A stretch of 22,809 bases of DNA from Elsinoe ampelina (taxonomy: Eukaryota), in contig ML992507.1 in the NCBI GenBank assembly GCA_010093995.1, positions 1,511,147 through 1,533,955 of the forward strand, given 5' to 3'. Positions within the stretch are counted from its first letter, which is position 1. Every line of letters starts with the position of its first letter. Below, in pieces: positions 1 to 22,809 of the stretch. The position numbers and the translations under genes were made by a program. Below the pieces are notes generated by a model. The model searched no databases and was not told where the DNA came from. It saw nothing but the letters and a program-made list of their open reading frames with translations.

Positions 1-3000
1 TCACCAATACAGGCTGTCCGGCGACCAGTGTGAGATCGGATGAGGAGCGCGATCGACGCCTTTTGCGTAGGAGAGCATCGACATGCGATCACAGTTGGCA
101 ACGTGACTGCCAAAGAAATGAATGTCTGCTGATGGTGTTGCAAGAAAAGTGCAAGCGATTGACCATCAATCAGAAGGCAAGCGGAGGGCTGAGAATGCAG
201 TACCGAAAGTGCGTCGAGTGCAGCATCCTTTCGCTTCAGATTTGCGATGGTATGGATGTACTGACCTCGAGCGACAAGCTTCGAGCTCACAGCAACGCAG
301 CGAGCAGTCTCAACTTTGTCTCCAGTCAACATCCAGATCTTGATACCAGCGTTGCGCAGTAGCTCCAGTGATGGCTTGATGTTCGCCTGCAATTTGTCCT
401 CCACTCCGGTAACTCCCAGAAGCTCCAAATCGTGCTCCAGATGACTCTTGACGGTTCTTGCCATCGACGCTTCGCGGTTCGATAGGCTCAAAGACGCAGC
501 ATTGTACTCCGTGAGGAAAGATTGGTACTGTCCGGCCGATAGAGCTCGTCGACCGATGACCAGCGTTCGTAGACCTTCTCGTGCCATATTTCCAGTCTCT
601 TCGTCAAGCCAGTCATTGGCGGCGACGATCGAGGTCATGACGGTATCTGCACCCTTTTGGAAGAAGTAGATATCGCCTGTGCTCGAATCGGATGTGATGA
701 ACTTGGCAATGATACCCATGCGCTTGCTATCGGAGGTGAAAGGGAAGATGTTCAAAATGGATATCTTGACGACAGTCCGCTCGTCTTTAGCATATTGCAG
801 GGTGATAGTCTTCCTGTCTCGGTGTAGCAGCCGCAAACCAACTTGCTCTGTCCAACGAACGATGGCTATCTCGTCAGGCGAGGAAGCCTGATATGATGTG
901 ATGATTTTGCCATCGATCTCTTCGTTTGTTGGCGTGACATTATGACATAGAGCCAGCGCAAGCACGAGGTCCCTGACTCTGGATCCAATCTCGCGTCTCG
1001 TACGAGTACCTGTCACAGGCCCAACTCCAATTGTGGTCGATGGATTGAATAGATCTTGAGATTCGCCAGATGCAGAAGCGAATGCTTGCTTGATGTACGA
1101 TGCTACTTCATCCATGGCTTCGTTTGCGTACGAGACCGTCCCGACGTGGACCTTCTTTAGCTCCATCTCATTTTGCGTTAGGGTTCCAGTCTTGTCGCTG
1201 AGCAGATATTCGATCCGTCCCAGATCCTCTGGAATTGTGCTAGTGCGAACAACTGTCTCAGGTATGCCCTTATCTCTCTGAATAAACCATGCGTACACGG
1301 ACTTGCCCATGTCTAAATTGACACGAAGACTGATGGGTACAATCGTGGAGAATAAGATTAGGAAGCGCATGACAGCGACGTACCACTTCATATTTCCATC
1401 TAGGTTGAATCCGTGCACTGCAACCAGGCCAAAGGATAGAGCCAAGGTCAAGAAACAGAGAATCTTCGTCAATGAATTGATCTCGTACTCCAACAGACCA
1501 GTCTTTGATCTTGACGATGAGGTGGAAAGAGCCGCCCGTGTCTCGCTACCCGTATATATCACCACCGCGAGGACCGTAGAGCTGGAGGCCAAGACGGTAT
1601 TTGCCCAAGCAGTGTTGTCGATGGACAGAGGCTGAGACTTTGGCTGCTCGTTTTCTGTGTCTTCTGCCCCTTGTCCTTCCGCGATATCCGGTTTGGCGAC
1701 ATGAGGGTCGTAATGGGTAGTCTTTGAGGGTATCAATTCCAGAGTGCCGACAAAGTCATTGACTTTTCGATCAGGTTTGCCAGCCACAAGACGAAGTCGT
1801 GTGAACTCCTCCACAGAGAGATTTTGTGATAGAGGTGCTGCGAGACGAAGCTTCCAGTCTGTCTCTCCATCGAGCTGATCCGTTCGAATAAAGGCTTCAC
1901 CACCAGCGCTGGGATCCGAAGAAGTGGTTTCGTTCACAGTTTTACCATCGACCTTGTCAGGTTCGCCGATTGTATCGATGAGATCAGCTGCAATATCTGC
2001 AGACTCTTTGCGAGGAGTCGTCGCTGCGACATCGATGGTGTTTTCCTGCGAGAAACTCTTTAGAATAATGACATCCGCTGGGAATCTAGAATCTTTCTCC
2101 ATGACAAGTACATCCCCAACCTTCAGATCTTTTGCACTCTTAAAAACGCGTCTCCTCTCGATCGCTTCCGTATCTGAGAGGTCGTGCCGGGTCGTCTCGT
2201 CATACTCTTGCGTGCCTTGCGCTTCATCCGCCCTCTTCCGACGCTGTAATTTCTTTCGTCTGATGCCCAGCTTTGATGTTGTTGACTCATTATCGTCCAG
2301 GCGCAGAACGGCATACAGCTCTGAGTTGGCTTCACTGTCTCGTTTTCGTCTTTGTATGTCATCCATAGCCTCTTTCCCCAGAGTTATCATAAGCACAAAG
2401 GCCAGAGGTGCAACATATGTACTGAGCATCCCAATCCGAAGAGGCTTGATCAGTTGCGAGAGAGCAACCAGAAGAAAGTACATGTTGAAGAAGAAAGAGA
2501 ATTCATTATAAAGCGTCCGAGGCAGAAATGACACAGGGGTATATTTTGCATTGGAAACAGCATTCGAAGGAAACTTGTGTTCTTGTCGTAATCCAACATG
2601 GATAGTTCTGTCCGATGCTGGATCGTGCTCTTCATCTTGTTCCTGGTCTGTAGGCGTGAGTGCTAGCTGGGGCGGTCTCTCCGAGGATAAGAAACGTGAT
2701 TTGAGCTGAGCAAAAGAAGGTCGCTTTCGTCCTTCCGGTGGAGGCTCTCCGCGCAGTAATGGTGCATCATCGTCGCCAAACCCGAGACTGGATCCAGAGT
2801 CTGGCGCTAGCTGCTGTGACCGGTCGACCAGGCCCTCAAGATCCTCATCGTCGCCGTCTGCTGCGGGTCTGCGATACCCTTTGCGGCCACCTATACGAAG
2901 ATTCCGGAGCGGTATTTGAGTCCGTAACTCCAAGCTCTTATTCTTCTGTTTCCCCTTTGATCGTTCCGAAAACCCATGCCCGTTTGCAGTCTGTGGGTCT

Positions 3001-3065
3001 AGCTCCTGCAAATCAAGGTCGACGTCCGAATCATCATCGCCGTACAAGTCCGCGGGCTCTGGCAT
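1..3065 (-). CDS. NEO1: P4-type ATPase phospholipid flippase, Neo1/ATP9 subfamily; 3' part lies beyond the left edge
   Basis: Missing from the ORF track because there is no stop in the window. Manual minus-strand translation from ATG 3065 gives MPEPADLYGDDDSDVDLDLQELDP...FPSNAVSNAKYTPVSFLPRTLYNEFSFFFNMYFLLVALSQ. Also TDQLDGETDWKLR (~1850-1885; DGETDWK is Neo1-type), the phosphorylation motif SDKTGTLTQNEM (~1165-1200), and RTACIG(D) at the window edge (start of the GDGGND hinge). Start codon, DKTGT and the edge motif share one frame, consistent with no intron. Confidence 0.96.
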   Translation of the reverse strand, partial: MPEPADLYGDDDSDVDLDLQELDPQTANGHGFSERSKGKQKNKSLELRTQIPLRNLRIGGRKGYRRPAADGDDEDLEGLVDRSQQLAPDSGSSLGFGDDDAPLLRGEPPPEGRKRPSFAQLKSRFLSSERPPQLALTPTDQEQDEEHDPASDRTIHVGLRQEHKFPSNAVSNAKYTPVSFLPRTLYNEFSFFFNMYFLLVALSQLIKPLRIGMLSTYVAPLAFVLMITLGKEAMDDIQRRKRDSEANSELYAVLRLDDNESTTSKLGIRRKKLQRRKRADEAQGTQEYDETTRHDLSDTEAIERRRVFKSAKDLKVGDVLVMEKDSRFPADVIILKSFSQENTIDVAATTPRKESADIAADLIDTIGEPDKVDGKTVNETTSSDPSAGGEAFIRTDQLDGETDWKLRLAAPLSQNLSVEEFTRLRLVAGKPDRKVNDFVGTLELIPSKTTHYDPHVAKPDIAEGQGAEDTENEQPKSQPLSIDNTAWANTVLASSSTVLAVVIYTGSETRAALSTSSSRSKTGLLEYEINSLTKILCFLTLALSFGLVAVHGFNLDGNMKWYVAVMRFLILFSTIVPISLRVNLDMGKSVYAWFIQRDKGIPETVVRTSTIPEDLGRIEYLLSDKTGTLTQNEMELKKVHVGTVSYANEAMDEVASYIKQAFASASGESQDLFNPSTTIGVGPVTGTRTRREIGSRVRDLVLALALCHNVTPTNEEIDGKIITSYQASSPDEIAIVRWTEQVGLRLLHRDRKTITLQYAKDERTVVKISILNIFPFTSDSKRMGIIAKFITSDSSTGDIYFFQKGADTVMTSIVAANDWLDEETGNMAREGLRTLVIGRRALSAGQYQSFLTEYNAASLSLSNREASMARTVKSHLEHDLELLGVTGVEDKLQANIKPSLELLRNAGIKIWMLTGDKVETARCVAVSSKLVARGQYIHTIANLKRKDAALDALSVLHSQPSACLLIDGQSLALFLQHHQQTFISLAVTLPTVIACRCSPTQKASIALLIRSHTGRRTACIG

Positions 3066-3502
3066 ACCTCATTGGCGCTTCGAAAGGTCGTGTGGATGTG
3101 TGTCAAGTCCGAGTGGGTGCGATCGTTTGTGTGATAGAGTGTATATTTGTGGTCGCTATTCGAAGTTGAGATTATTTCTTTGTCTGTCATGTTATGAAGT
3201 TAGGTATGTAGCAGCCTATAGAGAGGCCATTTGCGGCGGCCGGAGCTGTAGCGGACGGACCAACCAACAAGATTACTTCACGTCTTACTCTTCGCAATCT
3301 ACAATATTTTCCAGCGATCTCTTCGGAGATAGATTATCTCATCGGCATCGCCTTGACCGCCCATCTGTACCATAAAACGACCTGGTGTATAATAGAATGG
3401 CGCGCCTGTCAAGCGGACCTACACAGCTCACATGAAAGTGAGGACACCTACTCCATGTCTACGATCGTTCTACAATTGCGACCCTAGCATCAACTCGCAG
3501 AG
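3066..3502. promoter_or_regulatory. Putative bidirectional promoter between NEO1 and SEC16 (437 bp)
   Basis: Two divergent start codons lie 437 bp apart. No specific sites were identified with confidence. Confidence 0.6.
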
Positions 3503-6500
3503 ATGGCAAACCCTACCTCCGGCTCGACGCTCCTGTATCCTTCCGGCAATGCTTCTTGGAATCCAGCATTGAGACAACATTTCGAGACGCCATCGCCCGA
3601 TGCGCTCGCACATTCTCCTGCCTTGCCCGATGGACCGAACGATACTGAAGGCATAATAGAGGGCGAAGAGGAGAACACAACACCCGGCGATGTATCTGCG
3701 GGAGTCGGAACCACGAGCAGCAATGCCTACATCACCCAACACGATTCGGAGTTGGCGGTCGATACCGGTCCAGCAGTGGATCAGGCGCAAATGATTCCGC
3801 ATCTCCAAACGGCGACACATTCGCCCACCACTGCACCCCAACCGGACGCCTCACCGGAAGCTCAGCCGGAAGTGACCATGTCAGCGGACGATGATATCGG
3901 CGCGCAGGGGAGCAGGGATGTGGATGAGGAGATTATCCCTGGGGCTGCAAATCAAGTGCTGACAATGGACTCGGCTGATGAAGCTGTTCCGGTCGATCTC
4001 GAGGCGATACAACAGGCCGTACATGCTCCCCTTCAGATGGAAGTACCGCATGAAGATGCCACGGTTACAGATCTGCCTTCGGAGGACCCAATCTACTCTC
4101 CGAACCATACACAGTACGAGCATCAAGGAGATGCCACGGAAGCAGATATCGCAGTTGATGAAGCACCCACAGCTAGCTTATTACGCGAGCCCGAAGCTGG
4201 ACCCGACCTAGATTCTCCTATGGAACAGAGTAATGTTGAAATCACGGAAGAGGTGTTGGACAACGGAATCGCTAGCTTCGAGGACGTTACCAAGTCTGAT
4301 CAGCTCGGCAATTCAAAAGCATCAGAGTGGGACGATATAGAGGGCGGAGATGACTTTGAGAACATACTTGGAAAGTCTAGAGAGGTACCAACGAACGACC
4401 CGTTTGCTTCGGAGTTACAAGATTCCGACGCATTCCCACAGTCTGAGCCCGTGGTAGACCCGTTCGCAGCTGCATTGGCTGAAGATGATCTTAGCGAGGA
4501 GTCACAGAAAACAACAGGGCAAGAGATTCGAGATAATCAAGAGGACATTGAAGATCTCTGGGCAGCAGCGCTCGACGACGACGATCTATTGGATACCTCT
4601 GGAGCTGTCGATCCCAGTGGCTTCTTCGACGATGACGATGACGGAGGTTTTCTTGGTGACGATGTTACCAGTAGCGGTGATCAAGTCCCGCCTCTGCCAG
4701 CACAAACACAGCCGGCGCAGAGAAATATCAGCTACGCACCAGCTTCTGCTCCACAGCAACAGCAGAATCAGTATGCGCCCGTGTCACAATCACCTCTAAA
4801 CTATACTCAACAGTCTTTTGGGCCTCGACCAGCGTCAACTCCAACATCTTTCTTGCCGGTCATGCCGAATCAGTTCACAGAGTCCATCCCAGCGTCGCAA
4901 AGACCGACGCCAGCATCTTCTAGCAGCTTCGTTGACAAGTCGAAATCTGGCTATAGCTCACCATACGATCTACCTACAGACATTGTGGCTCCTCGCAGGC
5001 GAGCGCCAGCACCAGTGACGGCGCCAGTACAGGCGACTGCTCCACCTCCTCGAACCAGCAGCATGAGCAGCATGAATGCACCGCTAGGTGGACCACCTAG
5101 GCCACCTTCCAACGTATCTGCCATAGTTTCACCCACCACACCTTCCACGCAGACATCACAAGTGTCTCCAAGGAAAGTCAGCAATGACAAGTCTGGGTTT
5201 TTCGCAGATCTGCCTATTGCGCCCAAGGTGAGGTCGAGGCAACCTACATATACTCCAGCACCGGCGAATGCAATTGCAGCACCACCCCAACAGCCTCAAC
5301 CACCGAGATCTCTACCTCAGCCCTCGGCACCTCTTCCATCAGCCCCACAGCCACAAACGTATGGTGGACTGCAGCAGCCGGCGAGGCTCCCACTTTACCC
5401 GGATCAGATCGATCCATCTGGTGCACTATCTTCTCAACCACATGCGCCACCTGCAGCCACAAATCGATACTCGCCTGCTCCAGCAAGCCAACAAATCCCG
5501 CAAGGCAACAGATTCTCTCCCATGCCCCCAGCGCCTCCTGTGCAAAGCAGATATGCGGCAGCTCCTGGTGCACCAACGACTGCTGCCCAGCGTGCCCACT
5601 CTTTCATTCCGAAAACCTCAAGTCCACTCGCGTACCACGACGAGACTGAACAAGCAAAGCCTCGACAGGGATCCCTCACAAATATGGGGACCGACGCTGA
5701 TGCTGGACGGATACTAGGCCACAGATCACGTCTCTCCGGCCAACTTGACGATGATGCCATGATTCGAAGTCATCCAGAGAGGACGTTGACTCCACCACAA
5801 GGCGCAGCCAAGTCTGCCTCTGCACAAAGCTCTCCACGACATTCCACAAGGTATGCACCGTATGAAACGGGATCTGCTCGGGCAATCTCACCCCCGAATC
5901 GCCCACAGACGCAGTCTCCACTACAAACCAAGAGAGGCCCATCATCGTACGCTCCAGCTGCGGATCGCCGAACATCTACAGCATATGCTTCGCAACCTGT
6001 CCAGTCGTCTCAGCCTCAACTCGCTCTACCAAGTCGACGACAGTTTTCCACCGACCTCAACTTTGACGTGCCACAGGATGAGCGATCTGCGGATCACCTT
6101 GAGAGATGGAAAGGCCATCCCATCTTCCGATGGGCGCCCAGCGGCATCTTGATCAGCAGCTTTGCTAAACAGATGCCCTTCTATGCCGCAGGTCACGCAA
6201 TTCCAGTGATTAAGTGTACGGCTGGGCCGATCACTATTCATGACACCAAGGAGACATTCCCGCTGAGCGACAAGGACAATCGATTTCCAGGACCTCTACA
6301 GGGCAAGGGGAAAGGCAAGAAAAAAGACGTCGTAGCCTGGATGACGGCAAAAATAGAAGCTATGGATAAGGAGCTCGGTGAGACTCTGCTCGATCTGAGT
6401 ACGCCTACCCTGATCAAGCAGCGTGCAGAAGAGAAACTCCTGCTGTGGAAGATTGTGCAATTATTTATAGAGCACGACAACGCTCTTGAGGGAAAAGCCG

Positions 6501-9190
6501 GCGTTGACGATGCCATCCGACGACTTCTACTGCCCGGTGACATCGATGATTTATCCCCTCTAGTTGCACAACTTGATGCGGATCGGCAAGGTTCTGCTCC
6601 CGATCAAATAGATCCAAATGCGCTTGCCGAGGTCCGCAAGTTGCTGTTCGCAGGTCAACGTGAGAAAGCCGTGTGGTTGGCGACTGAGAAGAAGTTGTGG
6701 TCCCATGCCATGCTCATTGCCTCCACCATGGGCCCAGAGATCTGGAAGCAGTTGATCCATGAGTTTGTCAAATCGCAGGTCAAGGGTCCTGGTGACGGTA
6801 TGAGAAGTCTCGCAGCAGTATATGAGGTCTTTGGTGGCAATCACGACGAGAGTATTGATGAGCTGGTCCCGCCTTTTGCACGAGCTGGTCTGACCCTTGG
6901 CAACGGAGTTGGTGCATCAGCAGCTAGCATAGATGGCCTTGAAAAGTGGCGAGAAACTTTGAGCTTGATTCTCAGCAATCGCAGCGCCAACGATGGGCAA
7001 GCTATTGCGGCTCTTGGAAAGCTTCTCGCTGGCTATGGTCGCGTAGAGGCTGCCCACACCTGCTATCTATTTGCGCGGACTTTCGTCAACCACAGCGGCA
7101 CTGATGATCCAGAGGCGGCTTTCGTCCTTCTGGGTGCAGATCACAAGGCTCACAGTCCAGCTCTTGGCAGTGATCTGGATTCTATTATGCTCACGGAGGT
7201 GTACGAGTATGCTCAATCACTAAACCCCACACCAGGGGTCTCGTCGGTGATACCGCACCTTCAAGCCTACAAGTTGATACATGCATATGGCCTGGCTGAT
7301 CATGGAATGCGTTCAGAAGCCCAGAGCTATTGCGAATCCATCTACCAAGCGATCAAATCGACGACACGAGCATCGCCGTACTACCACGTGGCATTCACTA
7401 CCGCAGTCGAGGACCTCAATCGCTGTCTGTCGCAGGCGCCTCAAACGTCATCCTCGACCGGGCTATTCTCCAAACTGTCATCTGACAAGATGTCTGGAAG
7501 CATGTGGAAACGCTTCAACACCTTTGTCGCTGGAGACGACGACGACAATGCTTCAACTGGCTCGGGCCCAGGAGATCACGGTGACACTGCAGGACCGTTT
7601 GGGAAAGTCACCGGCAACAGTCCAGCAATTAGTCGGGCTCCTTCTAACGCGGACCTGTACGGAGCAATGTCAATGGGGGCAGGCATGAACGGTAGTGTCG
7701 CTTATGGGACATCGCCAATGTCACCGAACGCCGTCTATAATACCTCTCCTGGTCAAGCTGTCCAACAAGGAAACGACCGCACAGTCAGTGGACGGTACGC
7801 ACCTCAGGCTCCGGGAGCCCTCACGGCTCAGAGGAAAGCCAGTACCACTCGACCCTACGAGCCACAACGGACAGCATCTGGGTACATCCCACCTGCTGCG
7901 GGAACAAGAGCGCCGTCAAAATCATACGCTCCTTACACACCTCAGCCACAGGAAGGTAGGCAGCCCAGCTACGGCGCTTATACTCCTGCAGTAAAACCGG
8001 ATCAGCCAGTAAGGTCATCCTCGGACTACAATGTACCATATTCGATCGGGCAAGGTGCGCAGCCCACGATTCGACCTCCGTCAGCGGGATTGCATGTCCC
8101 GCCTGGTCTCGGATCTCCATACAAGCCTCAACCATCACCACTCAGCGCCGAATCTTCCCCACCCTCGCAGAATGGATATGTTCCGTCAATAACACAATCA
8201 CCTGAACCTGCTTCCGACCACCATGTAGAAGAAAGTCAAGGGTATGAACCTCCATCAGCGACTTTCCAGTCGCCAGCATCGAATAGCTACGAGCCGCCGT
8301 CTGCATCTTTCGAGCCACCCACGGCATCCTACGATCCTCCTTCAGCGTCCTATGAGCCTCCATCTGCCTCCTTTGATGATGAGCCAGCTCCATCCTCCGA
8401 AGACCCTTCATCATCCTACGAACCTCCCATCTCGTCATACCAACCGTACGAGCCTACCTACGACGACACCCCAGCCGACGACGAACCCCGACCGAAAAGG
8501 AAAGGCATCATGGACCTCTCAGACGACGAAGACTTCCCCCGCCCCACCCCTCCACCAAAACAACCCTCATCCTCATCCACCGCCGCAGACCGCGCCGCAG
8601 CCGACAAAGCAGCCGACGAGGCCTTCCGCAAAGCCGCCGAAGCCGACGCCGAGCGCGACAAACAAGCCAAAGAACTCGCGGCCAAGAAAGGCTGGTTCGG
8701 CGGCTGGTTCGGCAAGAAAGGCAGCGAAGACCTCGACCAACAACCTAAAGCCATCCGAGCCAAGCTGGGCGAAGAGAACAGTTTCTACTTCGACAAGGAC
8801 CTCGGCAAATGGGTCAACAAAAAAGGTGGCAAAGAAGAGGAGACAAAAGCCGCCGCCACTCCGCCCCCGCCTATGGCTGGGCCACGCAAGGGGACGCCTG
8901 CTCCCCCCATGGGGCCGGGGAGTGCCCCGCCGAGTAGAGTCGCGAGCGGTGTTGGGCTCGCGGGTGCGGGAGGACCGCCGAGTCGACCGCCGACGTCGGT
9001 GCCGAACGGGACGCCACCGCTTGGTGGGCCGAGGACGGGAACGCCGGGGTTGGAGATGCCGAGTAGGCCGGGGACGGGGTTGAGCAATGCTAGTAGCATC
9101 GATGATTTGTTGGGACCGGCGGGGGCGAAGAAAGGGACGGTGAGGGGGAAGAAGAAGGGGGGGAGGTATGTGGATGTTATGGCTAAGTAG
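3503..9190 (+). CDS. SEC16: COPII coat assembly / ER exit site scaffold Sec16 (1895 aa)
   Basis: Acidic and Pro/Ser-rich disordered N-terminus. Central conserved domain motifs RWKGHPIFRW, FPGPL, LWSHAMLIAS, KWRETLSLILSNR, AAHTCYLFA and HLQAYKL. C-terminal motifs KGWFGGWF, AKLGEENSFYFDKDLGKWVNKK, SIDDLLG and RYVDVM are typical of fungal Sec16. The exact start codon is less certain. Confidence 0.95.
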   Translation: MANPTSGSTLLYPSGNASWNPALRQHFETPSPDALAHSPALPDGPNDTEGIIEGEEENTTPGDVSAGVGTTSSNAYITQHDSELAVDTGPAVDQAQMIPHLQTATHSPTTAPQPDASPEAQPEVTMSADDDIGAQGSRDVDEEIIPGAANQVLTMDSADEAVPVDLEAIQQAVHAPLQMEVPHEDATVTDLPSEDPIYSPNHTQYEHQGDATEADIAVDEAPTASLLREPEAGPDLDSPMEQSNVEITEEVLDNGIASFEDVTKSDQLGNSKASEWDDIEGGDDFENILGKSREVPTNDPFASELQDSDAFPQSEPVVDPFAAALAEDDLSEESQKTTGQEIRDNQEDIEDLWAAALDDDDLLDTSGAVDPSGFFDDDDDGGFLGDDVTSSGDQVPPLPAQTQPAQRNISYAPASAPQQQQNQYAPVSQSPLNYTQQSFGPRPASTPTSFLPVMPNQFTESIPASQRPTPASSSSFVDKSKSGYSSPYDLPTDIVAPRRRAPAPVTAPVQATAPPPRTSSMSSMNAPLGGPPRPPSNVSAIVSPTTPSTQTSQVSPRKVSNDKSGFFADLPIAPKVRSRQPTYTPAPANAIAAPPQQPQPPRSLPQPSAPLPSAPQPQTYGGLQQPARLPLYPDQIDPSGALSSQPHAPPAATNRYSPAPASQQIPQGNRFSPMPPAPPVQSRYAAAPGAPTTAAQRAHSFIPKTSSPLAYHDETEQAKPRQGSLTNMGTDADAGRILGHRSRLSGQLDDDAMIRSHPERTLTPPQGAAKSASAQSSPRHSTRYAPYETGSARAISPPNRPQTQSPLQTKRGPSSYAPAADRRTSTAYASQPVQSSQPQLALPSRRQFSTDLNFDVPQDERSADHLERWKGHPIFRWAPSGILISSFAKQMPFYAAGHAIPVIKCTAGPITIHDTKETFPLSDKDNRFPGPLQGKGKGKKKDVVAWMTAKIEAMDKELGETLLDLSTPTLIKQRAEEKLLLWKIVQLFIEHDNALEGKAGVDDAIRRLLLPGDIDDLSPLVAQLDADRQGSAPDQIDPNALAEVRKLLFAGQREKAVWLATEKKLWSHAMLIASTMGPEIWKQLIHEFVKSQVKGPGDGMRSLAAVYEVFGGNHDESIDELVPPFARAGLTLGNGVGASAASIDGLEKWRETLSLILSNRSANDGQAIAALGKLLAGYGRVEAAHTCYLFARTFVNHSGTDDPEAAFVLLGADHKAHSPALGSDLDSIMLTEVYEYAQSLNPTPGVSSVIPHLQAYKLIHAYGLADHGMRSEAQSYCESIYQAIKSTTRASPYYHVAFTTAVEDLNRCLSQAPQTSSSTGLFSKLSSDKMSGSMWKRFNTFVAGDDDDNASTGSGPGDHGDTAGPFGKVTGNSPAISRAPSNADLYGAMSMGAGMNGSVAYGTSPMSPNAVYNTSPGQAVQQGNDRTVSGRYAPQAPGALTAQRKASTTRPYEPQRTASGYIPPAAGTRAPSKSYAPYTPQPQEGRQPSYGAYTPAVKPDQPVRSSSDYNVPYSIGQGAQPTIRPPSAGLHVPPGLGSPYKPQPSPLSAESSPPSQNGYVPSITQSPEPASDHHVEESQGYEPPSATFQSPASNSYEPPSASFEPPTASYDPPSASYEPPSASFDDEPAPSSEDPSSSYEPPISSYQPYEPTYDDTPADDEPRPKRKGIMDLSDDEDFPRPTPPPKQPSSSSTAADRAAADKAADEAFRKAAEADAERDKQAKELAAKKGWFGGWFGKKGSEDLDQQPKAIRAKLGEENSFYFDKDLGKWVNKKGGKEEETKAAATPPPPMAGPRKGTPAPPMGPGSAPPSRVASGVGLAGAGGPPSRPPTSVPNGTPPLGGPRTGTPGLEMPSRPGTGLSNASSIDDLLGPAGAKKGTVRGKKKGGRYVDVMAK
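8285..8368 (+). repeat. In-frame 21-nt coding tandem repeat in SEC16, 4 x S-[YF]-[ED]-P-P-[ST]-A
   Basis: agctacgagccgccgtctgca / tctttcgagccacccacggca / tcctacgatcctccttcagcg / tcctatgagcctccatctgcc, with further degenerate YEPP units on both sides. Confidence 0.85.
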
Positions 9191-12174: not shown

Positions 12175-12312
12175 TGAGCCTGAGGTAACCCTTACTTGCT
12201 TCCCGATCTCTCCATTGCTCGCTCACCGGAAGAAGCTCAGAGGCCAGCCCTGATCCCCACTTACTCCAAGAGGGAATAATCTCCAATCCCAAACCTCGGA
12301 CAGCATCTCACC

Positions 12313-13305
12313 ATGCTCTCCCCCCATCTCCTCACCACCCTCACCGGGCTGGCATTAGTCACCGCCAACCCCATCTCCAAACGCCTCGTCAGCCCCCCCG
12401 TAATCAGCCAAGACTTCCCCGACCCCTCCCCCTTCTTCGAGTCCGGCACCTGGTACGCCTTCGCCTCACAATCCAACTTCACCCGCGGCGGACCCAAAGT
12501 CCAAGTCGCTTCATCTCCCGACTTCACCACCTGGACCGTCCGCGAAGGCTACGACGCCCTCCGCTCCCTCCCGCCCAACACAATCGACACCAACGAAGTC
12601 TGGGCCCCGGACGTCACGCGCCTCAACGACGGCTCCTTCCTCATGTACTTCGGCACCACCCCGGCCTCGGACCGCGGGAAAAAATGCATGTACACGGCGC
12701 GCAGCACCACCCTCCTGGGACCCTACGACCCGGACCCGGAACCCTTCGACTGCTCCCTGTCCGAGGGCGGGTCGCTCGACGCATCGGGCTTCGTGGACGA
12801 CGACGGCACGCGGTACGTGACGTGGAAACTCGACGCCAACAGCCTGGGCAACGGGGGGTCGTGCGGCAACAGCGTGCCGCCGCTGGTGGACACGCCGATC
12901 GTGATCCAGCAGGTGGGCGCCGACGGGGCGACGAAAGTGGGTGATCGGACGGTGATTTTGAACCGGGACGACATCGATGGGCCGACGGTCGAGGCGCCAA
13001 AGATCATCAAGAAGGAGGGGTTTTATGTCTTGTTCTTTTCGAATAATTGCTTCAATAGTCCGTACTACACGCAGAGTTATGCGTATAGTAGGAATGTCAG
13101 GGGCCCGTATACCAAGGCGGCGAGGCCGTTGTATACCCTGGGTACGCAGGGGTTGTCGGGGCCCGGAGGGGGGGAGGCGACGGCGGATGGGAGTAGGATG
13201 GTTTTTCATGCGTTGAGGGAGGGAGGGGTGAGGTTCATGCATACGTCGAATTTGGAGTATAATGTTGGGGGGTTTGGGGAGGGGAGTATTGAGATTATTG
13301 GGTAG
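12313..13305 (+). CDS. Secreted glycoside hydrolase family 43 (single five-bladed beta-propeller; arabinanase/arabinofuranosidase/galactofuranosidase-like), 330 aa, intronless
   Basis: Signal peptide MLSPHLLTTLTGLALVTA followed by NPISKR (Kex2 site). GH43 motifs DFPDP (catalytic base), WAPDV, GGSLDASGF (pKa-modulating Asp) and VEAP (catalytic acid). Strong codon bias. Confidence 0.93.
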   Translation: MLSPHLLTTLTGLALVTANPISKRLVSPPVISQDFPDPSPFFESGTWYAFASQSNFTRGGPKVQVASSPDFTTWTVREGYDALRSLPPNTIDTNEVWAPDVTRLNDGSFLMYFGTTPASDRGKKCMYTARSTTLLGPYDPDPEPFDCSLSEGGSLDASGFVDDDGTRYVTWKLDANSLGNGGSCGNSVPPLVDTPIVIQQVGADGATKVGDRTVILNRDDIDGPTVEAPKIIKKEGFYVLFFSNNCFNSPYYTQSYAYSRNVRGPYTKAARPLYTLGTQGLSGPGGGEATADGSRMVFHALREGGVRFMHTSNLEYNVGGFGEGSIEIIG

Positions 13306-17825: not shown

Positions 17826-19889
17826 TCACCCCCTAACCCTCAAACTATTACTCCTCCTCTCCTCCGCCCTATACCCCCTCTTCCTCCCCGTAACCTTCAG
17901 CACCAAATCCCCCACCCCCCTCTCCGGCTTGAACTCCACCTCCTGCCCCTGCTTCACCTCAAATTTCCTCCCCACCTCCCTCCGATCAGCAATCCACTGC
18001 GCCTCCAACGTGACCCCAGGATCCCACCGCCCCACGCTCGCCGTCACCCTTCCCCTTCCGTCGTTCTTGACCTCCGGATCCGCTTGTCTGGCTTTCGCCG
18101 CTGCCCGGCCGCCGTGAGCGAGGACTTCCTCCCACGCATTCCCCCTGCTCGTCGGCACGGTCACGGCAGAGTCGAGCGGCGTCTTGCCATCCGGTGCATG
18201 GTCTTGGATCCACTGGTAGACGAGCTCGAAGAACTCCCATTGAGGGAGGTTGTTGTAGACACCACCATGGGGGCGGGTGGGGAGGTAGGTGAAATTAGCC
18301 CAGCCTGCGCCTCCCAAAGCTTCGACTTTCTTCTGGAACTCCTGCACGCCGAGGTTGAGGTAGTAGGTGTCTCTTCCGCCGACGTAGATGAACATGCGGT
18401 TCTTGAGGACTTGGCCTAGGTTCCGTGAAGAAGCCCAGTTGGAGGTGATGTACTCTGCTAGATCGAAGGGTTTCCAGAGCTCGACGGCGCCGGGGTAGAT
18501 CTCGCCCGTGTACTTGTCCCATGCTTCGAGGGGGTAGTTGTTGTAGCCTTGGGCGGAGAAGACGGCTTGCCAGACGTCCCATTGGAGGAAGGAGCGGGTA
18601 GAGGTGCCGAAGGAGAGTTCCCAGTGGTTTTCTTGCTGGGTGGTGGCGAGGACGACCTCGGTGTCGTTGACGAAGGTGCGGATTGAGGGGATGCTGCTGC
18701 CGTCGGCGTTGAAGTAGGCGTTTTTGTTGGTGTAGAGAGGAATGGCTTGGTGGCGGATGAAGGAGAGAGAGTCCGGGTAGGAAGAGAAGCAGGCACCGAA
18801 GAGGTCTGGGCGGTAGGCGAGGGAGGCGGCGGAGATCCAGCCGCCTGTGCTGCCGCCTTCTTGGACGCGAGCGTAGGGTTCAGCGATGGTCCGGAAAGTA
18901 GAGTCGATGAGAGGAATCATTTCGTCGTTGATTGCGTCGCCGTAGGGGCCGATGTTGGCCGTGTTCACCGCATAGCTGTCGTCGTAGAATGGAGCTTCGT
19001 GGCGGAAGGTGACGTGGATGAACTTGGGGGTCGGTCTGCTTGGAGAGCTGTTGGTCGCGGGAATGATACCAGAGTCCCACTGAGCCGTGAAAGCCTCACT
19101 GTACCGCCAGTCACCTCCAGTCCAGTGATCTTGTTCATACACAACGGGATAGCGAGTGGTGGAGTTGGCATATCCAGGCGGGAGACGGATGTTCGCGCCA
19201 ACATACATGTCTCTGCCCCAAAATTTGCTCAATGCTTCGCTGCGGATCTTGAGGTGCTTGAGCGAGCCGGCGTCTTCGTAATTGCCCTGATTGCAGCCAC
19301 CAATCTCGCTACCAGTAAAGTCCTCTGGGCCGGTGACGTTGGTGAATTTCAATTCAACAGTCTGCCCACGACCAGTGATTTGCACATCAGTGATGACAGA
19401 TGTCAGACTGCCGGGACCATTGATAGTTGCGCCGCCGTCACCGCACGGGAAGCGGACGCTGACCTTTGACCCATCACTGCGTACAGCAGTCTCGTACTTG
19501 GTCAAGAAAGCCTGGACACTGTAGCTGCCAGCTGGGATCTGGTTCAAGCTGACGTTCGGCCATCCGTAGACGCCAGTGTCGGTGTCAACACTGCTACCTC
19601 CAGAAAGTGTGATGATGCTACCAGCTTCGATGCCGAAGACATTCTTGCCAAAGATCTTGTCAGGTGAGGAATCGACTTCAGTGTCTTCCAGTGGATCGGT
19701 GCCAGCAGGTGCGAACAGGACATGCACGCGGCCGTCGGTGGTATTCGACAGAAGTCCGTCGGCAATTGACAGACGGACATTCAAGCCTCGTTTGGCATAA
19801 TCTTCCGGTGCAGAAGTGGTCGACTGTGGAAGAGCAATAACCGCCGACACGGCAGTCAAAGCAAGACCGAAAACCCGAAATCCAACCAT
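17826..19889 (-). CDS. Secreted alpha/beta-hydrolase (putative esterase, enterochelin-esterase/CE1-like), 687 aa, intronless, with a C-terminal Ig-like module
   Basis: The likely start is ATG 19889 (MVGFRVFGLALTAVSAVIA signal peptide, then YAKR Kex2 site), not the GTG at 19952. Nucleophile elbow GGSTGG (18857-18840), candidate acid GGRDTYYL, candidate His PTRPHGG, and the conserved block YDDSYAVNTANIGPYGDAI. Confidence 0.88.
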   Translation of the reverse strand: MVGFRVFGLALTAVSAVIALPQSTTSAPEDYAKRGLNVRLSIADGLLSNTTDGRVHVLFAPAGTDPLEDTEVDSSPDKIFGKNVFGIEAGSIITLSGGSSVDTDTGVYGWPNVSLNQIPAGSYSVQAFLTKYETAVRSDGSKVSVRFPCGDGGATINGPGSLTSVITDVQITGRGQTVELKFTNVTGPEDFTGSEIGGCNQGNYEDAGSLKHLKIRSEALSKFWGRDMYVGANIRLPPGYANSTTRYPVVYEQDHWTGGDWRYSEAFTAQWDSGIIPATNSSPSRPTPKFIHVTFRHEAPFYDDSYAVNTANIGPYGDAINDEMIPLIDSTFRTIAEPYARVQEGGSTGGWISAASLAYRPDLFGACFSSYPDSLSFIRHQAIPLYTNKNAYFNADGSSIPSIRTFVNDTEVVLATTQQENHWELSFGTSTRSFLQWDVWQAVFSAQGYNNYPLEAWDKYTGEIYPGAVELWKPFDLAEYITSNWASSRNLGQVLKNRMFIYVGGRDTYYLNLGVQEFQKKVEALGGAGWANFTYLPTRPHGGVYNNLPQWEFFELVYQWIQDHAPDGKTPLDSAVTVPTSRGNAWEEVLAHGGRAAAKARQADPEVKNDGRGRVTASVGRWDPGVTLEAQWIADRREVGRKFEVKQGQEVEFKPERGVGDLVLKVTGRKRGYRAEERRSNSLRVRG

Positions 19890-19954
19890 GACGAACTGAA
19901 GATTAATAGAAACGACACGTCGTGACCTTGACGTCGTTGAAGACATCCTCACCT

Positions 19955-19960
19955 CTTATA
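19955..19960 (-). promoter_or_regulatory. Candidate TATA box of the hydrolase gene
   Basis: TATAAG on the minus strand ~70 nt upstream of ATG 19889. Confidence 0.5.
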
Positions 19961-19974
19961 AAGACCTCGCATAC

Positions 19975-20116
19975 TGTTGTAACTAGCAAATCGGATCGAG
20001 AGACGTGTGTTTCATTCAGAGAGTTACAATAACCGATTTATCTACTGTGCGTGCGCTGACTCATTAGTACCAGTTCTTTAGTACTAGAGAAGCTATACCA
20101 GCCTTCTATTATAACA
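19975..20116 (-). repeat. 3' LTR (142 bp)
   Basis: The minus strand begins TGTTATAA directly after the PPT and ends TTACAACA. These termini are an 8-bp inverted repeat with one RIP-type mismatch (TGTTGTAA vs TGTTATAA). Predicted 5-bp TSD is CATAC (19970-19974). The partner LTR is outside the window. Confidence 0.85.
20057..20063. promoter_or_regulatory. TGACTCA Gcn4/CpcA (AP-1-type) consensus inside the LTR
   Basis: Exact match to TGA(C/G)TCA, ~170 nt upstream of the hydrolase ATG. A single 7-mer, so function is unproven. Confidence 0.3.
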
Positions 20117-20126
20117 CTCCCCCTCT
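20117..20126 (-). other. Polypurine tract
   Basis: AGAGGGGGAG directly abuts the TG of the LTR, the typical copia arrangement. Confidence 0.9.
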
Positions 20127-20476
20127 GGTATAGATTGCTAAAGCTAGAGAACTGTCCTATTATATATAAGTAAAGTAATTAGCTTATTACTTTATCTCTT
20201 TGTAATTGCTTATAATTGTTAGTATTAGCTAATCATTAGTAAGAATTTACTATTAGTTTAGCTTATAATTACTAGCAATAATAGTAACTATTAATAATAG
20301 CTAGGCAGCTATTATTTATATAAATAGACTAGCTTATAAGTCTTAATTAAAGAGATATAAGTATCTAACTAGCCTCTTTATAATTTCTCTTTCCTTTATT
20401 ATACTTATAGTAGTAGCCTTTTCTTTTATATAACACTTTTACCTTCTTACTATACTATATTAATAATACTTATAAT

Positions 20477-21750
20477 ATAAGCACTATAGTGTAGTAATAG
20501 CTAGGTATTAGTAGCATTACTACTAGTGCTAGTGCTCTAAGTAGTCTACTAGGTAGCGGAGGTAGTAGTAAGAAGAGAAATCCTCTATTAAGGTTACCTA
20601 GTACTTCTAATGTTAATTATAATACTACTATAAGACTAATTACTTGTCTTAATGCTCTTAGTAAGTAGCTATAAAGCATTAATAGCATAAGCTAACATTA
20701 ATAGCCTAATTAACTTAGACTTTAACTTAATAGTTAGCCGACATAATCTAGAATACTCTCCTTAGGCTTAGGATAATTAGTTATTACAACTATACTAACT
20801 TATATCCTATCTAGAGGTCTATAGTAGTCTAGGCCTTTAGTACCTATAGTATATACCTAGTAGTTACTAATTCTATTCTAGTTAAGGATCTAACTAAGTA
20901 AGTTAACCTTACTAGATCTACTAACTACTCTACTACTTTAATAGCTTCTAGTGCTACTAGTAGAGTAGTCTACTATAGCACTAATCGCTATACTAAGTGT
21001 TAGGGATCTAACCCTAGTAATAATTAGAGTAAGGGTAAGAGTAGCAAGTTTAGTAAGTATATTACTTTGCCTAGTTAGCTTAATAAGGCCTACACTTACT
21101 ATACTTATAGTAACTAATATACTAGATGTTCCTTAGCTAACTATACTCTAACTCTAAGGCCTATTAGCTCTCCTAAACCTATAAGGACCCCGAGTAGCTT
21201 AAGGGTTATTACCTAGCCTATTCTATATAGCCTAATACACCTACTAATAGAGCTCCTAAGGTCTATCTCTTTTAGTAGTACTTTACCTTAGAGGTTCTTA
21301 CTAAGGGCCTATATACTAGGAGTATTATTAGGTGTAGTTAATACCTTAATAACTTATACTAACTCTTGCTACTTTATAGTAGTCCCTATAAACTTTATAG
21401 ATCCTACTAACCTAATCGCTACTAAGGTTCGTAACTTAGCTACTATAGTAATAAACTATATAGTAGAGCTTATAAGGATTATAGCTACTAGCTACCCTAG
21501 TTAGCTTTCTCCTATTTATGCCTTTATACTAGGCCTAGCACTAATAAGGTATAGTAGGTCTAGATCTAACACTTCTATAAGGTCTACTAGTAGTAATAAG
21601 GGAAGGAGTTCTTCTTCTATAAAGAAGTAATTAGAGGTAGAGGATAGGTAGAGGTTATTAAAGGTAATAATAGTACTAAGTAGTAGATATAGCTTAGGCA
21701 TAAGTAGCTAGTAATAGAGTTATAATAGCTTTTCCTTTCTCTCTTCTTAA
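20477..21750 (+). pseudogene. RIP-degraded antisense gene inside the copia element; Cys6 DUF3716-like domain; at least one intron (20661-20704)
   Basis: The plus frame at 20986-21135 reads RYTKC*GSNPSNN*SKGKSSKFSKYITLPS*LNKAYTYYTYSN*YTRCSL. Reversing RIP-type transitions (TAT/TAC to TGT/TGC, TAG/TAA to CAG/CAA, AGT to GGT) gives RCTKCQG...GKGGKFGECITLPGQLxxACTxCxYGNQxTRCSL. The intron GTAAGT...GCTAAC...TAG joins an upstream Gly/Pro-rich KKR-containing frame to this frame. Start (ATA, read as ATG) and stop are estimates. Confidence 0.7.
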
Positions 21751-21897
21751 TAATAAAATAATTTACTTTAAGCTTTAGATAAATAAGATAGCTTAATAAG
21801 TAGTAGTAGCATAAATAACATACTTAAAATAATAATATATATAAAATCTAAATAAGTATATAGTATAGATATATACTAAGTAATTAGCCTTTGCTAA

Positions 21898-22809
21898 TTA
21901 ATTAAGGATCTTATTAGGAGACTTAGGCTTTATAAGTGTATTAGCTAATTACTAAGTTATATTAATATACTTAAGCTTAATTACTCTAAGTTTATACTAC
22001 TCTCTATAGTAATAATTCCTTAAATTAATATACTTAGATCTCCTTAAATTAGTATAATCTCTTATAAGTTTAATAGCTAACTTGTTATTAACAAAGACTA
22101 TAGTTAGGCTAAGGTAAATATTAGTAAGTGGCCTAAGTTTAATAATAAGATTTCTTAACTAATTAATCTCTCTATAGGTCTTAGTAAGGGCAAGGTATTT
22201 AGCCTTAGTACTTAATAATATAATAATCTTCTATAGCTTTAACTTCTAAATAACTAGTGCACTAAGTATATAAATAATAGTACTAGATATAGATCTTGTA
22301 GTTAATCTATCTCTAGCAAAGTCTAAGTTAGAGTAGGCCTTAATTGTGTTAACTAATAGTCTATTAGTCTTCTTAAAGGTAAGGCCCTTTATAATAGTCC
22401 TATTAATATACCTCTAGATCTACTTAGCTATAACTATATAAGCTATAGTTAGATTCTAAAGGAACCTAGCTAGGTAATTAGTAGCATAGCTAATATTAGG
22501 CCTTATATTGTTAGCTAAATATTGTAATTTACTAATGATTCTATTAAATGTCTTATAGTACTAAGCATTAACTTAGCTATTAGTTAGTTTATAGAGTTAA
22601 TTAATAAAATACTTTATAGTTCTTACTTAGTAAAGATTATAATCTTTAAGCTTCTCCTTTAAGTAGTATAATTACTTAATCTTAATTAAGTTCTTAGTTC
22701 TATAAAGTTAAACACTAAGGAAGAGGTTTAAGTTTATAATCTTTATTAGAAACTTAAGATAAAGATCTTTAACTAGCTTATCTATATACTTCTACCTAGT
22801 AGTAATAAT
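21898..22809 (-). pseudogene. pol: Copia pol remnant: RT C-terminus and RNase H
   Basis: One frame with RIP stops: IISKLQYLANNIRPNISYA (=IGKLQY..TRPDISYA), AYSNLDFARD at ~22338-22309 (=YSDSDFAGD), LLSTKAKYLAL (=LSSTEAEYLAL), VFVNNKLAI (=VDNKSAI), RSKYINLRNYY (=RSKHIDLRNH), LANTLIKP (=LADTLTKP). Confidence 0.95.

What the first reader, a model, noticed from the sequence alone, without database searches (positions are those of the whole stretch)
20661..20814. Spliceosomal intron(s) preserved inside a retrotransposon, in the only orientation that survives retrotransposition
Seen: GTAAGT (20661), GCTAAC (20691) and TAG (20704) define a 44-nt intron. Removing it joins the upstream frame (de-RIP approx. 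GAGAPSGPPGGGGGGKKRNPPSRSPG) exactly to the Cys6 frame. A second possible in-frame intron ends at 20814 (TACTAAC 20793-20799, CTAG), but its donor is unclear. Known: introns in the sense of the genomic RNA are lost on reverse transcription, while antisense ones are not spliced from it. Inference: the cargo is an independently transcribed, spliced gene, probably with its own pyrimidine-rich promoter at ~20340-20476, ending tail-to-tail with pol across ~150 bp. Overlapping antisense transcription could also generate dsRNA.
Basis: partly seen in the sequence, partly recalled or inferred. Interest (0 to 1): 0.7.

Follow-up and report, generated by a model that had tools for sequence, protein, structure and literature searches.

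The report
Real intron in dead Copia passenger
A mutation-wrecked fungal jumping gene carries a backwards passenger gene whose one short intron is genuine: the same intron sits in this gene's relatives in other kinds of mobile DNA and is cut out of a relative's RNA, while the proposed second intron is ordinary coding sequence.

Summary
The 44-nt intron (20661-20704) is very probably real; the second proposed intron is not. The DNA is a RIP-saturated fungal Ty1/copia element (minus strand) carrying, between pol and the 3' LTR, the wreck of an antisense DUF3716 (PF12511) six-cysteine gene; Zn2Cys6 membership was not shown. The splice motifs alone are chance-level in RIP DNA. But an intron of 47-49 nt with a different interior sits at the same phase-1 position in a sister copia subfamily, a pogo-like DNA transposon and two subtelomeric paralogues, and an RNA-type contig shows it removed from one paralogue. 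The 'second intron' aligns gap-free with coding sequence of all four relatives. Two Ty3/gypsy elements from a metagenome carry the same gene family antisense, one with a canonical intron. Antisense extra genes are known (plant aORF-3R, Botrytis brtn); 'only orientation that survives' is overstated. This scan noted the cargo before, on other copies and genomes; in the notes I saw for this genome the intron and family were left unproven. Likely role: a nuclear DNA-binding helper shared among transposon classes (inferred). No RNA evidence for the copia copy itself.

The parts
19975..20116 (-). 3' LTR (142 bp, TG...CA) of a Ty1/copia retrotransposon
   Evidence: Direct repeats 6.7 and 7.0 kb apart in two full copies; aligned ends and 5-bp target duplications in 2 of 2 full copies
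20117..20126 (-). Polypurine tract
   Evidence: Purine run on the minus strand abutting the LTR; kept in 6 of 6 aligned copies of three subfamilies
20126..20428 (+). Non-coding block shared by copia subfamilies with diverged cargoes, ending in a CT-rich stretch; candidate promoter of the antisense gene (inferred)
   Evidence: 72-78% identity to the C37 family over ~300 nt, while the window-type cargo behind it did not match that query; alignment; function untested
20477..20660 (+). Exon 1 of the antisense gene (start not recognisable after RIP, approximate); Gly-rich stretch followed by a basic patch
   Evidence: Frame; a similar Gly-rich/KK-P N-terminus in homologues P0006, P0009, P0011, P0013, P0014, P0020
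20661..20704 (+). 44-nt phase-1 spliceosomal intron (GTAAGT, branch 20691-20696, AG 20703-20704)
   Evidence: homologous intron absent from gene models P0002/P0003 and from an RNA-type contig
20705..21630 (+). Exon 2, RIP-broken; includes the proposed 'second intron' as coding sequence; end approximate (stop at 21628-21630 after a basic tail)
20989..21132 (+). DUF3716-type six-cysteine cluster; two of the six aligned positions still read Cys in the window, four read Tyr
   Evidence: hhalign to homologue profiles E 5.3e-5 and 2.1e-5; P0003 finds two copies of this cargo genome-wide at E 6.9e-5 and 6.2e-4; alignment; the window's own reading gives no Pfam hit
21763..22809 (-). RIP-broken end of copia pol (RT/RNase H), cut by the contig end; low end approximate
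   Evidence: Translation; RVT_2 (PF07727) in the full copy L031 at E 5.4e-24 and 7.6e-19

Best explanation
The stretch is a genuine relic intron of a two-exon passenger gene (about 370 codons, DUF3716 family) lying antisense between pol and the 3' LTR of a fungal Ty1/copia element that RIP has since destroyed. Shown: element type, copy family, intron position conserved across four diverged contexts, splicing of the homologous intron in a subtelomeric paralogue, no second intron. Inferred from established retrotransposon biology: the genomic RNA runs on the minus strand, so the spliceosome never saw this intron on it and reverse transcription copied it intact; the passenger was transcribed on the plus strand from near the 3' LTR and spliced. 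Inferred, weaker (about 0.45): the protein was a nuclear zinc-binding, sequence-specific DNA-binding helper that favoured the element's own expression or persistence, which is why unrelated transposon classes carry it.
For: Copia identity and structure. 52 matches at 91-100%. Donor and acceptor kept in all copies covering them. Sister copia subfamily: 48-nt intron at the same site, GT in 10 of 11, CTAAC and TAG in 11 of 11; the only non-triplet gap against the window falls inside the intron. Subtelomeric paralogues L033 (49 nt) and L034 (47 nt) and the pogo-like TIR element L077/L100 (48 nt) have it too. Run X9 holds a contig joining L033:1176 to 1226; X6 has a loose end agreeing by one diagnostic letter; the DNA run X1 shows no such joint. 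Intact gypsy L139 (LTRs 100% alike) has an open antisense DUF3716 ORF, and gypsy L140 one with a canonical 51-nt intron. For DNA binding: a DUF3716 protein is reported orthologous to N. crassa NCU05718 (PMC10776026), which binds double-stranded TTAGGG directly (PMC4650311).
Against: No unmutated copy of this copia was found (all 114 RVT_2 matches carry stops), so its pre-RIP splice sites are inferred, not read. The window's frame has no Pfam hit of its own and its links to DUF3716 are modest (E 1e-4 to 1e-5; hhalign probability 67-77%). RNA support concerns a paralogue, in contigs whose RNA status is a guess; 1 of 3 RNA-type runs laid nothing, and X9 also holds an unspliced L034 contig at depth 3.7. 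Identity inside the intron (24 of 44 columns, my count) is not clearly lower than in the start of exon 2. 44 nt is the shortest of the five introns. The CGTACG array that earlier notes tie to this gene family is absent here, so no binding site supports the helper role.
Confidence: 0.87

Rival explanations
1. The splice signals are RIP-made TA-rich look-alikes and there never was an intron here.
For: Motifs are chance-level in this DNA; a nearby GTAAGT is demonstrably RIP-made; all copies are RIP-saturated.
Against: Same position and phase in four relatives with unlike interiors, two of them little touched by RIP; spliced contig for the paralogue; the two exons are in different frames without it.
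Confidence: 0.05
2. The gene has two introns, the second ending at 20814.
For: A branch-like word and CTAG lie at the stated places; the AG is kept in 26 of 28 copies as CTAG followed by A, and all 28 keep the TA of it.
Against: No canonical donor; sister subfamily lacks branch and AG in 11 of 11; 71 residues after intron 1 align without a gap in 5 of 5 sequences, two of them open coding exons; profile alignment runs across the proposed acceptor.
Confidence: 0.04
3. The intron is real but the gene is a passive hitch-hiker, picked up as DNA (for example from an inserted DUF3716-bearing DNA transposon or subtelomeric repeat) and of no use to the retroelement.
For: Donor candidates with the same intron exist in the same genome (L077/L100, L033/L034); a kept intron fits capture at DNA level or from unspliced opposite-strand RNA; no target motif found.
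Against: Kept at the same place in three copia subfamilies with frame-preserving divergence (58% identity over 186 residues between two) and independently in two gypsy elements, one with a fully open 334-aa ORF.
Confidence: 0.3
4. The antisense RNA, not the protein, is what matters: it pairs with genomic RNA and tunes silencing.
For: Geometry allows overlap; spliced non-coding antisense RNAs are described for TART (PMC1636488) and the idea is discussed for aORF-3R (PMC7264820).
Against: What is conserved between elements is the reading frame and the Cys pattern, not the nucleotide sequence.
Confidence: 0.08

Closest known systems
Antisense additional ORFs between pol and 3' LTR (aORF-3R): maize Grande gene23, rice RIRE2, Silene Retand, bean PvRetro13 (review PMC7264820, main text read)
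   Same: Position, orientation, presence in most copies, own upstream promoter and nuclear product shown for Grande gene23, function unknown
   Different: Here a fungal Ty1/copia host element, a recognisable family (DUF3716), an intron, and homologues in other transposon classes, whereas the review notes a lack of similarity of aORFs to other TEs
brtn of Boty (Ty3/gypsy) in Botrytis cinerea and Sclerotinia (Zhao et al. 2011; seen only as cited in PMC7264820 and PMC8365987)
   Same: Fungal LTR element with an extra antisense gene before the 3' LTR
   Different: Gypsy rather than copia; whether brtn is a DUF3716 protein or has this intron could not be checked
REP9/Styx (IS3EU DNA transposon) of Zymoseptoria, genes REP9-1 and REP9-2 (PMC8232023, passages read)
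   Same: DUF3716 passenger genes, multi-exon, inside a fungal transposon; REP9-1 is expressed and lowers pycnidia formation
   Different: Class II element; no strand conflict with reverse transcription
Neurospora Tad LINE-like element (Sewell and Kinsey 1996; seen only as a citation in PMC1636488; its spliced minus-strand ORF3 with a putative zinc domain is recalled, not read)
   Same: Fungal retrotransposon with introns in its transcripts
   Different: Non-LTR element; relation of ORF3 to DUF3716 not tested
NCU05718 of N. crassa and PSC58 of Fusarium graminearum (PMC4650311, PMC10776026; passages read)
   Same: DUF3716 host protein; NCU05718 binds double-stranded TTAGGG directly
   Different: Host genes; the binding domain was not mapped, so DUF3716 as the DNA-binding part is an inference
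VANC anti-silencing proteins of Arabidopsis VANDAL elements (recalled; lead from earlier scan notes; paper not read)
   Same: Possible mode of action: a transposon-borne DNA-binding protein acting for its own element
   Different: No sequence link tested; the motif array expected of such a system was not found here

Membership tests
Ty1/copia LTR retrotransposon | LTRs with TG...CA ends and 5-bp target duplication | tested here: met
   (2 of 2 full copies); the window's own copy is cut by the contig end
Ty1/copia LTR retrotransposon | RVT_2-type reverse transcriptase | tested here: met
   PF07727 E 5.4e-24 and 7.6e-19 in copy L031
Ty1/copia LTR retrotransposon | Domain order protease-integrase-RT-RNase H | tested here: inconclusive
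   Only RVT_2 scored in the RIP-broken frames; RT lies at the end of pol, as expected
aORF-3R (antisense ORF between pol and 3' LTR) | [quoted passage not shown] | tested here: met
aORF-3R (antisense ORF between pol and 3' LTR) | Own antisense transcript from an upstream promoter | not testable with these tools
   All copies seen are RIP-broken; contigs give no strand or start
U2-type spliceosomal intron (intron 1) | GT donor, CTRAY branch, YAG acceptor, conserved position | tested here: met
U2-type spliceosomal intron (intron 1) | Removed from RNA | tested here: inconclusive
   Shown for the paralogue L033, not for the copia copy
U2-type spliceosomal intron (intron 2) | Donor and conserved 3' signals; absent from the coding alignment | tested here: not met
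DUF3716 (PF12511) | Pfam match over the cut-off | tested here: inconclusive
   Window reading: no hit. Homologues: L033/L034 48.7 bits; 39 of 40 at E<=0.01
DUF3716 (PF12511) | C-x2-C...C...C-x2-C...C spacing with the upstream NL-x-SNTNY-type motif | tested here: met
   Collinear; four of six positions read Tyr in the window after RIP
Zn2Cys6 (Gal4-type) binuclear cluster | PF00172 match, C-x2-C-x6-C spacing | tested here: not met
   Not listed for any of 40 homologues at E<=0.01; nine or more residues between Cys2 and Cys3
Zn2Cys6 (Gal4-type) binuclear cluster | Fold similarity | tested here: inconclusive
   Core model pLDDT 92; the searches listed no such chain, which does not exclude it for so small a domain
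VANC-like anti-silencing system | Array of a short target motif across the element | tested here: not met
   Only the CGTACG word of earlier notes and its decay forms were tested: below chance in L002 and L090, within chance in L034, L139, L140. Other words not surveyed; RIP could have erased one
VANC-like anti-silencing system | Protein binds its element and removes silencing marks | not testable with these tools
   Needs bench work

The most novel reading that the evidence does not exclude
DUF3716 genes are a fungal transposon helper module: a small zinc domain, possibly of undescribed fold, that binds DNA, is handed with its introns between Ty1/copia, Ty3/gypsy, pogo-like, IS3EU and subtelomeric helicase-linked repeats, and acts for its carrier against host silencing or as its transcription factor. 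In retroelements it settles antisense, where its introns survive, and intron positions record the hand-overs.
Probability: 0.3. Interest if true: 0.75.

Novelty: new variant of a known kind. Interest (0 to 1): 0.45.

Why it matters
The intron itself, in a dead element, changes little. Its value is as a marker: one intron position ties a copia passenger to genes in a DNA transposon and in telomere-linked repeats of the same fungus, and the family recurs antisense in gypsy elements. That gives the long-unexplained antisense extra ORFs of LTR elements a named protein family, with intact, expressed members that can be assayed for DNA binding. In my nine literature searches DUF3716 appeared in 2 papers and PF12511 in 1; the two DUF3716 papers place it in a DNA transposon and a host gene, not in an LTR element; subscription papers such as the brtn and Tad reports were not searchable.

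Tried and rejected
Scripted statistics were not possible (script machine lost); chance levels come from the DNA search shuffles. Motif-only argument rejected. A LINE reading, suggested by one-sided truncations, was dropped once LTRs and RVT_2 were found. No unmutated copia copy among 114 RVT_2 matches. Word-index protein searches returned little (2, 2 and 2 hits); source names for the homologues could not be fetched. PDB sequence search: one hit at E 1.1. Fold searches: whole model gave only helix matches (Z up to 6.1); core model gave no chain with Z of 2 or more among 48,161 and no Foldseek hit under E 6; Atlas found only DUF3716 clusters above TM 0.5. CGTACG array not found. Two rows of the alignment (C13, C51) and the frames for L077 were mis-specified by me and are not used; L020 did not cover the donor. 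Whether the C37-type cargo (L090, L110, L111) has intron 1 was not settled. PMC2881922 held nothing on Tad's transcripts. No complex was predicted.

Full report
Setting. The window is the end of contig C7 of a 28.3-Mb fungal genome; a source labels proteins from two contigs of matching length as Elsinoe ampelina. GC falls from about 0.53 to 0.26-0.34 after position 20000. The AT-rich part is a Ty1/copia element on the minus strand: a 142-bp LTR at 19975-20116, a polypurine tract, and the end of pol from about 21763. Two full copies have LTRs 6.7 and 7.0 kb apart and 5-bp target duplications, and RVT_2 scores E 5.4e-24 in one. The search gave 52 matches at 91-100% identity from 40 of 219 candidates scored. 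All 114 RVT_2 matches in the genome carry stops: no live copy was found.

The observation. Removing 20661-20704 (phase 1) joins the Gly/Lys-rich frame to the frame carrying the Cys cluster. Motifs alone prove nothing here: GTAAGT 8 seen against 15.4 expected, the full pattern 1 against 0.41, and another GTAAGT at 20898 reads GC in 10 of 28 copies, so RIP made it. At the proposed donor no such variant occurs (GTAAGT in 27 of 27), AG is kept in 28 of 28 and one copy reads CAG; but RIP is near saturation, so copies of one family cannot decide the point.

What decides it is the relatives. The Cys spacing suggested DUF3716 (my recall; confirmed as PF12511). That family has three matches in the genome; two, L033 and L034, are little-mutated members of a repeat with 19 matches, four of which lie within about 14 kb of TTAGGG arrays, upstream of a gene with an OrsD-type hit. 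Their protein P0003 finds two copies of the copia cargo genome-wide (E 6.9e-5, 6.2e-4) and a third context, L077, inside a 4-kb element with terminal inverted repeats and a DDE_1 transposase. A sister copia subfamily (L102 and ten more) shares the LTR and a cargo 58% identical over 186 residues. All four have an intron at the same codon position and phase as the window: 48 nt in L102, 49 in L033, 47 in L034, 48 in L077, with unlike interiors; A|GTA and AG are invariant in 5 of 5 (lengths counted). In the sister subfamily GT stands in 10 of 11 copies, CTAAC and TAG in 11 of 11, and the only non-triplet gap against the window falls inside the intron. Against this, intron identity (24 of 44 columns, my count) is not clearly below that of early exon 2. 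Public gene models P0002 and P0003 omit this intron; these are predictions. On L034:500-2400 a contig of run X9 joins the L033 exon end (1176) to 1226; X6 has a loose end agreeing by one letter; a second intron behind the Cys cluster (49 nt, GT..AG) is skipped in X6 and X9; the DNA run X1 shows neither joint; X7 laid nothing, and X9 also holds an unspliced L034 contig at depth 3.7. The RNA label of these runs is the tool's guess.

The second intron fails. There is no canonical donor between 20705 and 20793; the branch word reads TGCTAAC in 7 of 28 copies; the sister subfamily lacks the CTAAC and the AG in 11 of 11; and the 71 residues after intron 1 align without a gap in 5 of 5 sequences, two of them open exons. 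The copia cargo also lacks a GT at the place of the post-Cys intron of L033, L034 and L140, so it is a two-exon gene of about 370 codons.

The protein. A search of 1.84 billion representatives gave 39 hits; of 40 aligned homologues 39 match PF12511 and none lists Zn2Cys6. Several share the Gly-rich, basic N-terminus seen in exon 1. The window's X-read frame has no Pfam hit itself but aligns to homologue profiles at E 5.3e-5 and 2.1e-5. The core of an intact member folds confidently (113 residues, pLDDT 92); structure searches were uninformative.

Other elements. One metagenome scan (218 candidates, 2 confirmed) returned two Ty3/gypsy elements. L139 is intact, with identical LTRs, gag and pol on one strand and an open 334-aa DUF3716 gene on the other, tail-to-tail with pol; by eye a canonical 50-nt intron lies in its leader (604-653). 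L140 has the same layout with a canonical 51-nt intron behind the Cys cluster (233-283). A third copia subfamily carries a much more diverged cargo behind the same LTR and the same ~300-nt block.

How it works. Shown: structure, intron conservation, splicing in a paralogue. From established biology: an intron antisense to the genomic RNA is not spliced from it and is copied by reverse transcription. Inferred: plus-strand transcription from the conserved block by the 3' LTR. Inferred and weaker: a nuclear DNA-binding helper of the element; the support is recurrence in unrelated transposon classes, frame-preserving divergence, and direct TTAGGG binding by NCU05718, reported orthologous to a DUF3716 protein (PMC4650311, PMC10776026; passages read). 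Earlier scan notes report a CGTACG array in DUF3716-bearing elements; here that word and its decay forms are below chance in L002 and L090 and within chance in L034, L139 and L140, so that support is missing for this subfamily. A passive hitch-hiker remains possible (0.3).

What is known. Antisense extra ORFs before the 3' LTR are reviewed in PMC7264820 (parts 1-2 of 3 read, the whole main text), which cites brtn of Botrytis Boty; PMC8365987 (passages) annotates brtn; PMC8232023 (passages) has DUF3716 genes in the IS3EU element REP9; PMC10853768 (passages) names other domains for the same element; PMC1636488 (passages) lists retrotransposon transcripts with introns, Tad among them; PMC5225507 was seen as a search listing only. 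The brtn, Tad and VANC papers were not read; what I say of Tad ORF3 and VANC is recalled. The leads to brtn, aORF-3R and the palindrome came from earlier scan notes, which had found this cargo on other copies of this genome and in other genomes. A five-term search for antisense ORF, intron, fungal, copia and LTR retrotransposon returned 0 papers.

Verdict. Observation partly confirmed: one real intron, one false. New variant of a known kind; interest 0.45. The bolder reading, a DNA-binding helper module traded among fungal transposon classes, has probability about 0.3 and would merit 0.75.

Noticed in passing
window 19889-19975: The copia 3' LTR ends about 85 nt upstream of the likely start of a secreted-looking esterase gene (17826-19889, minus strand, PF00756) on the same strand; the insertion may have cut or replaced its promoter.
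   Followed up: no
window 3-3068, 3488-9190, 12280-13305: Ordinary host genes: P4-type phospholipid ATPase, Sec16, GH43 hydrolase.
   Followed up: partly
window 19975-20116: The short LTR keeps CpG and CpA dinucleotides that the internal region has lost, so it looks far less RIP-damaged than the DNA next to it (by eye).
   Followed up: no
L090:780-1950, L110, L111: A further copia subfamily has nearly the same LTR and PPT-proximal block but a very diverged DUF3716-like cargo with a basic tail, hinting at cargo exchange or fast divergence; intron state not settled.
   Followed up: partly
L100:5486-9465: RIP-broken 4-kb pogo-like TIR transposon (DDE_1) carrying a DUF3716 gene with the same intron.
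   Followed up: partly
L034 and L037: Subtelomeric repeat family (19 matches) in which a spliced DUF3716 gene precedes a gene with an OrsD-type hit, resembling telomere-linked helicase repeats (label recalled); two or three copies largely escaped RIP.
   Followed up: partly
L034, L140: CCTGA is enriched over dinucleotide shuffles: 47 against 13.5 and 48 against 21.1, 0 of 200 shuffles reaching it. May be CpG decay or a motif of its own.
   Followed up: partly
L139:604-653: Candidate 50-nt intron (GTGAGT, ACTGAC, TAG) ending 3 nt before the ATG of the antisense gene in an intact gypsy element.
   Followed up: no
L031:6657-6673 (minus strand): The primer-binding site resembles the internal half-tRNA(iMet) type of copia elements (recalled, not tested).
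   Followed up: no
L035:1501-1632: Weak third PF12511 match (27.8 bits) in unmutated DNA downstream of what looks like a tRNA gene (by eye).
   Followed up: no
   Followed up: no
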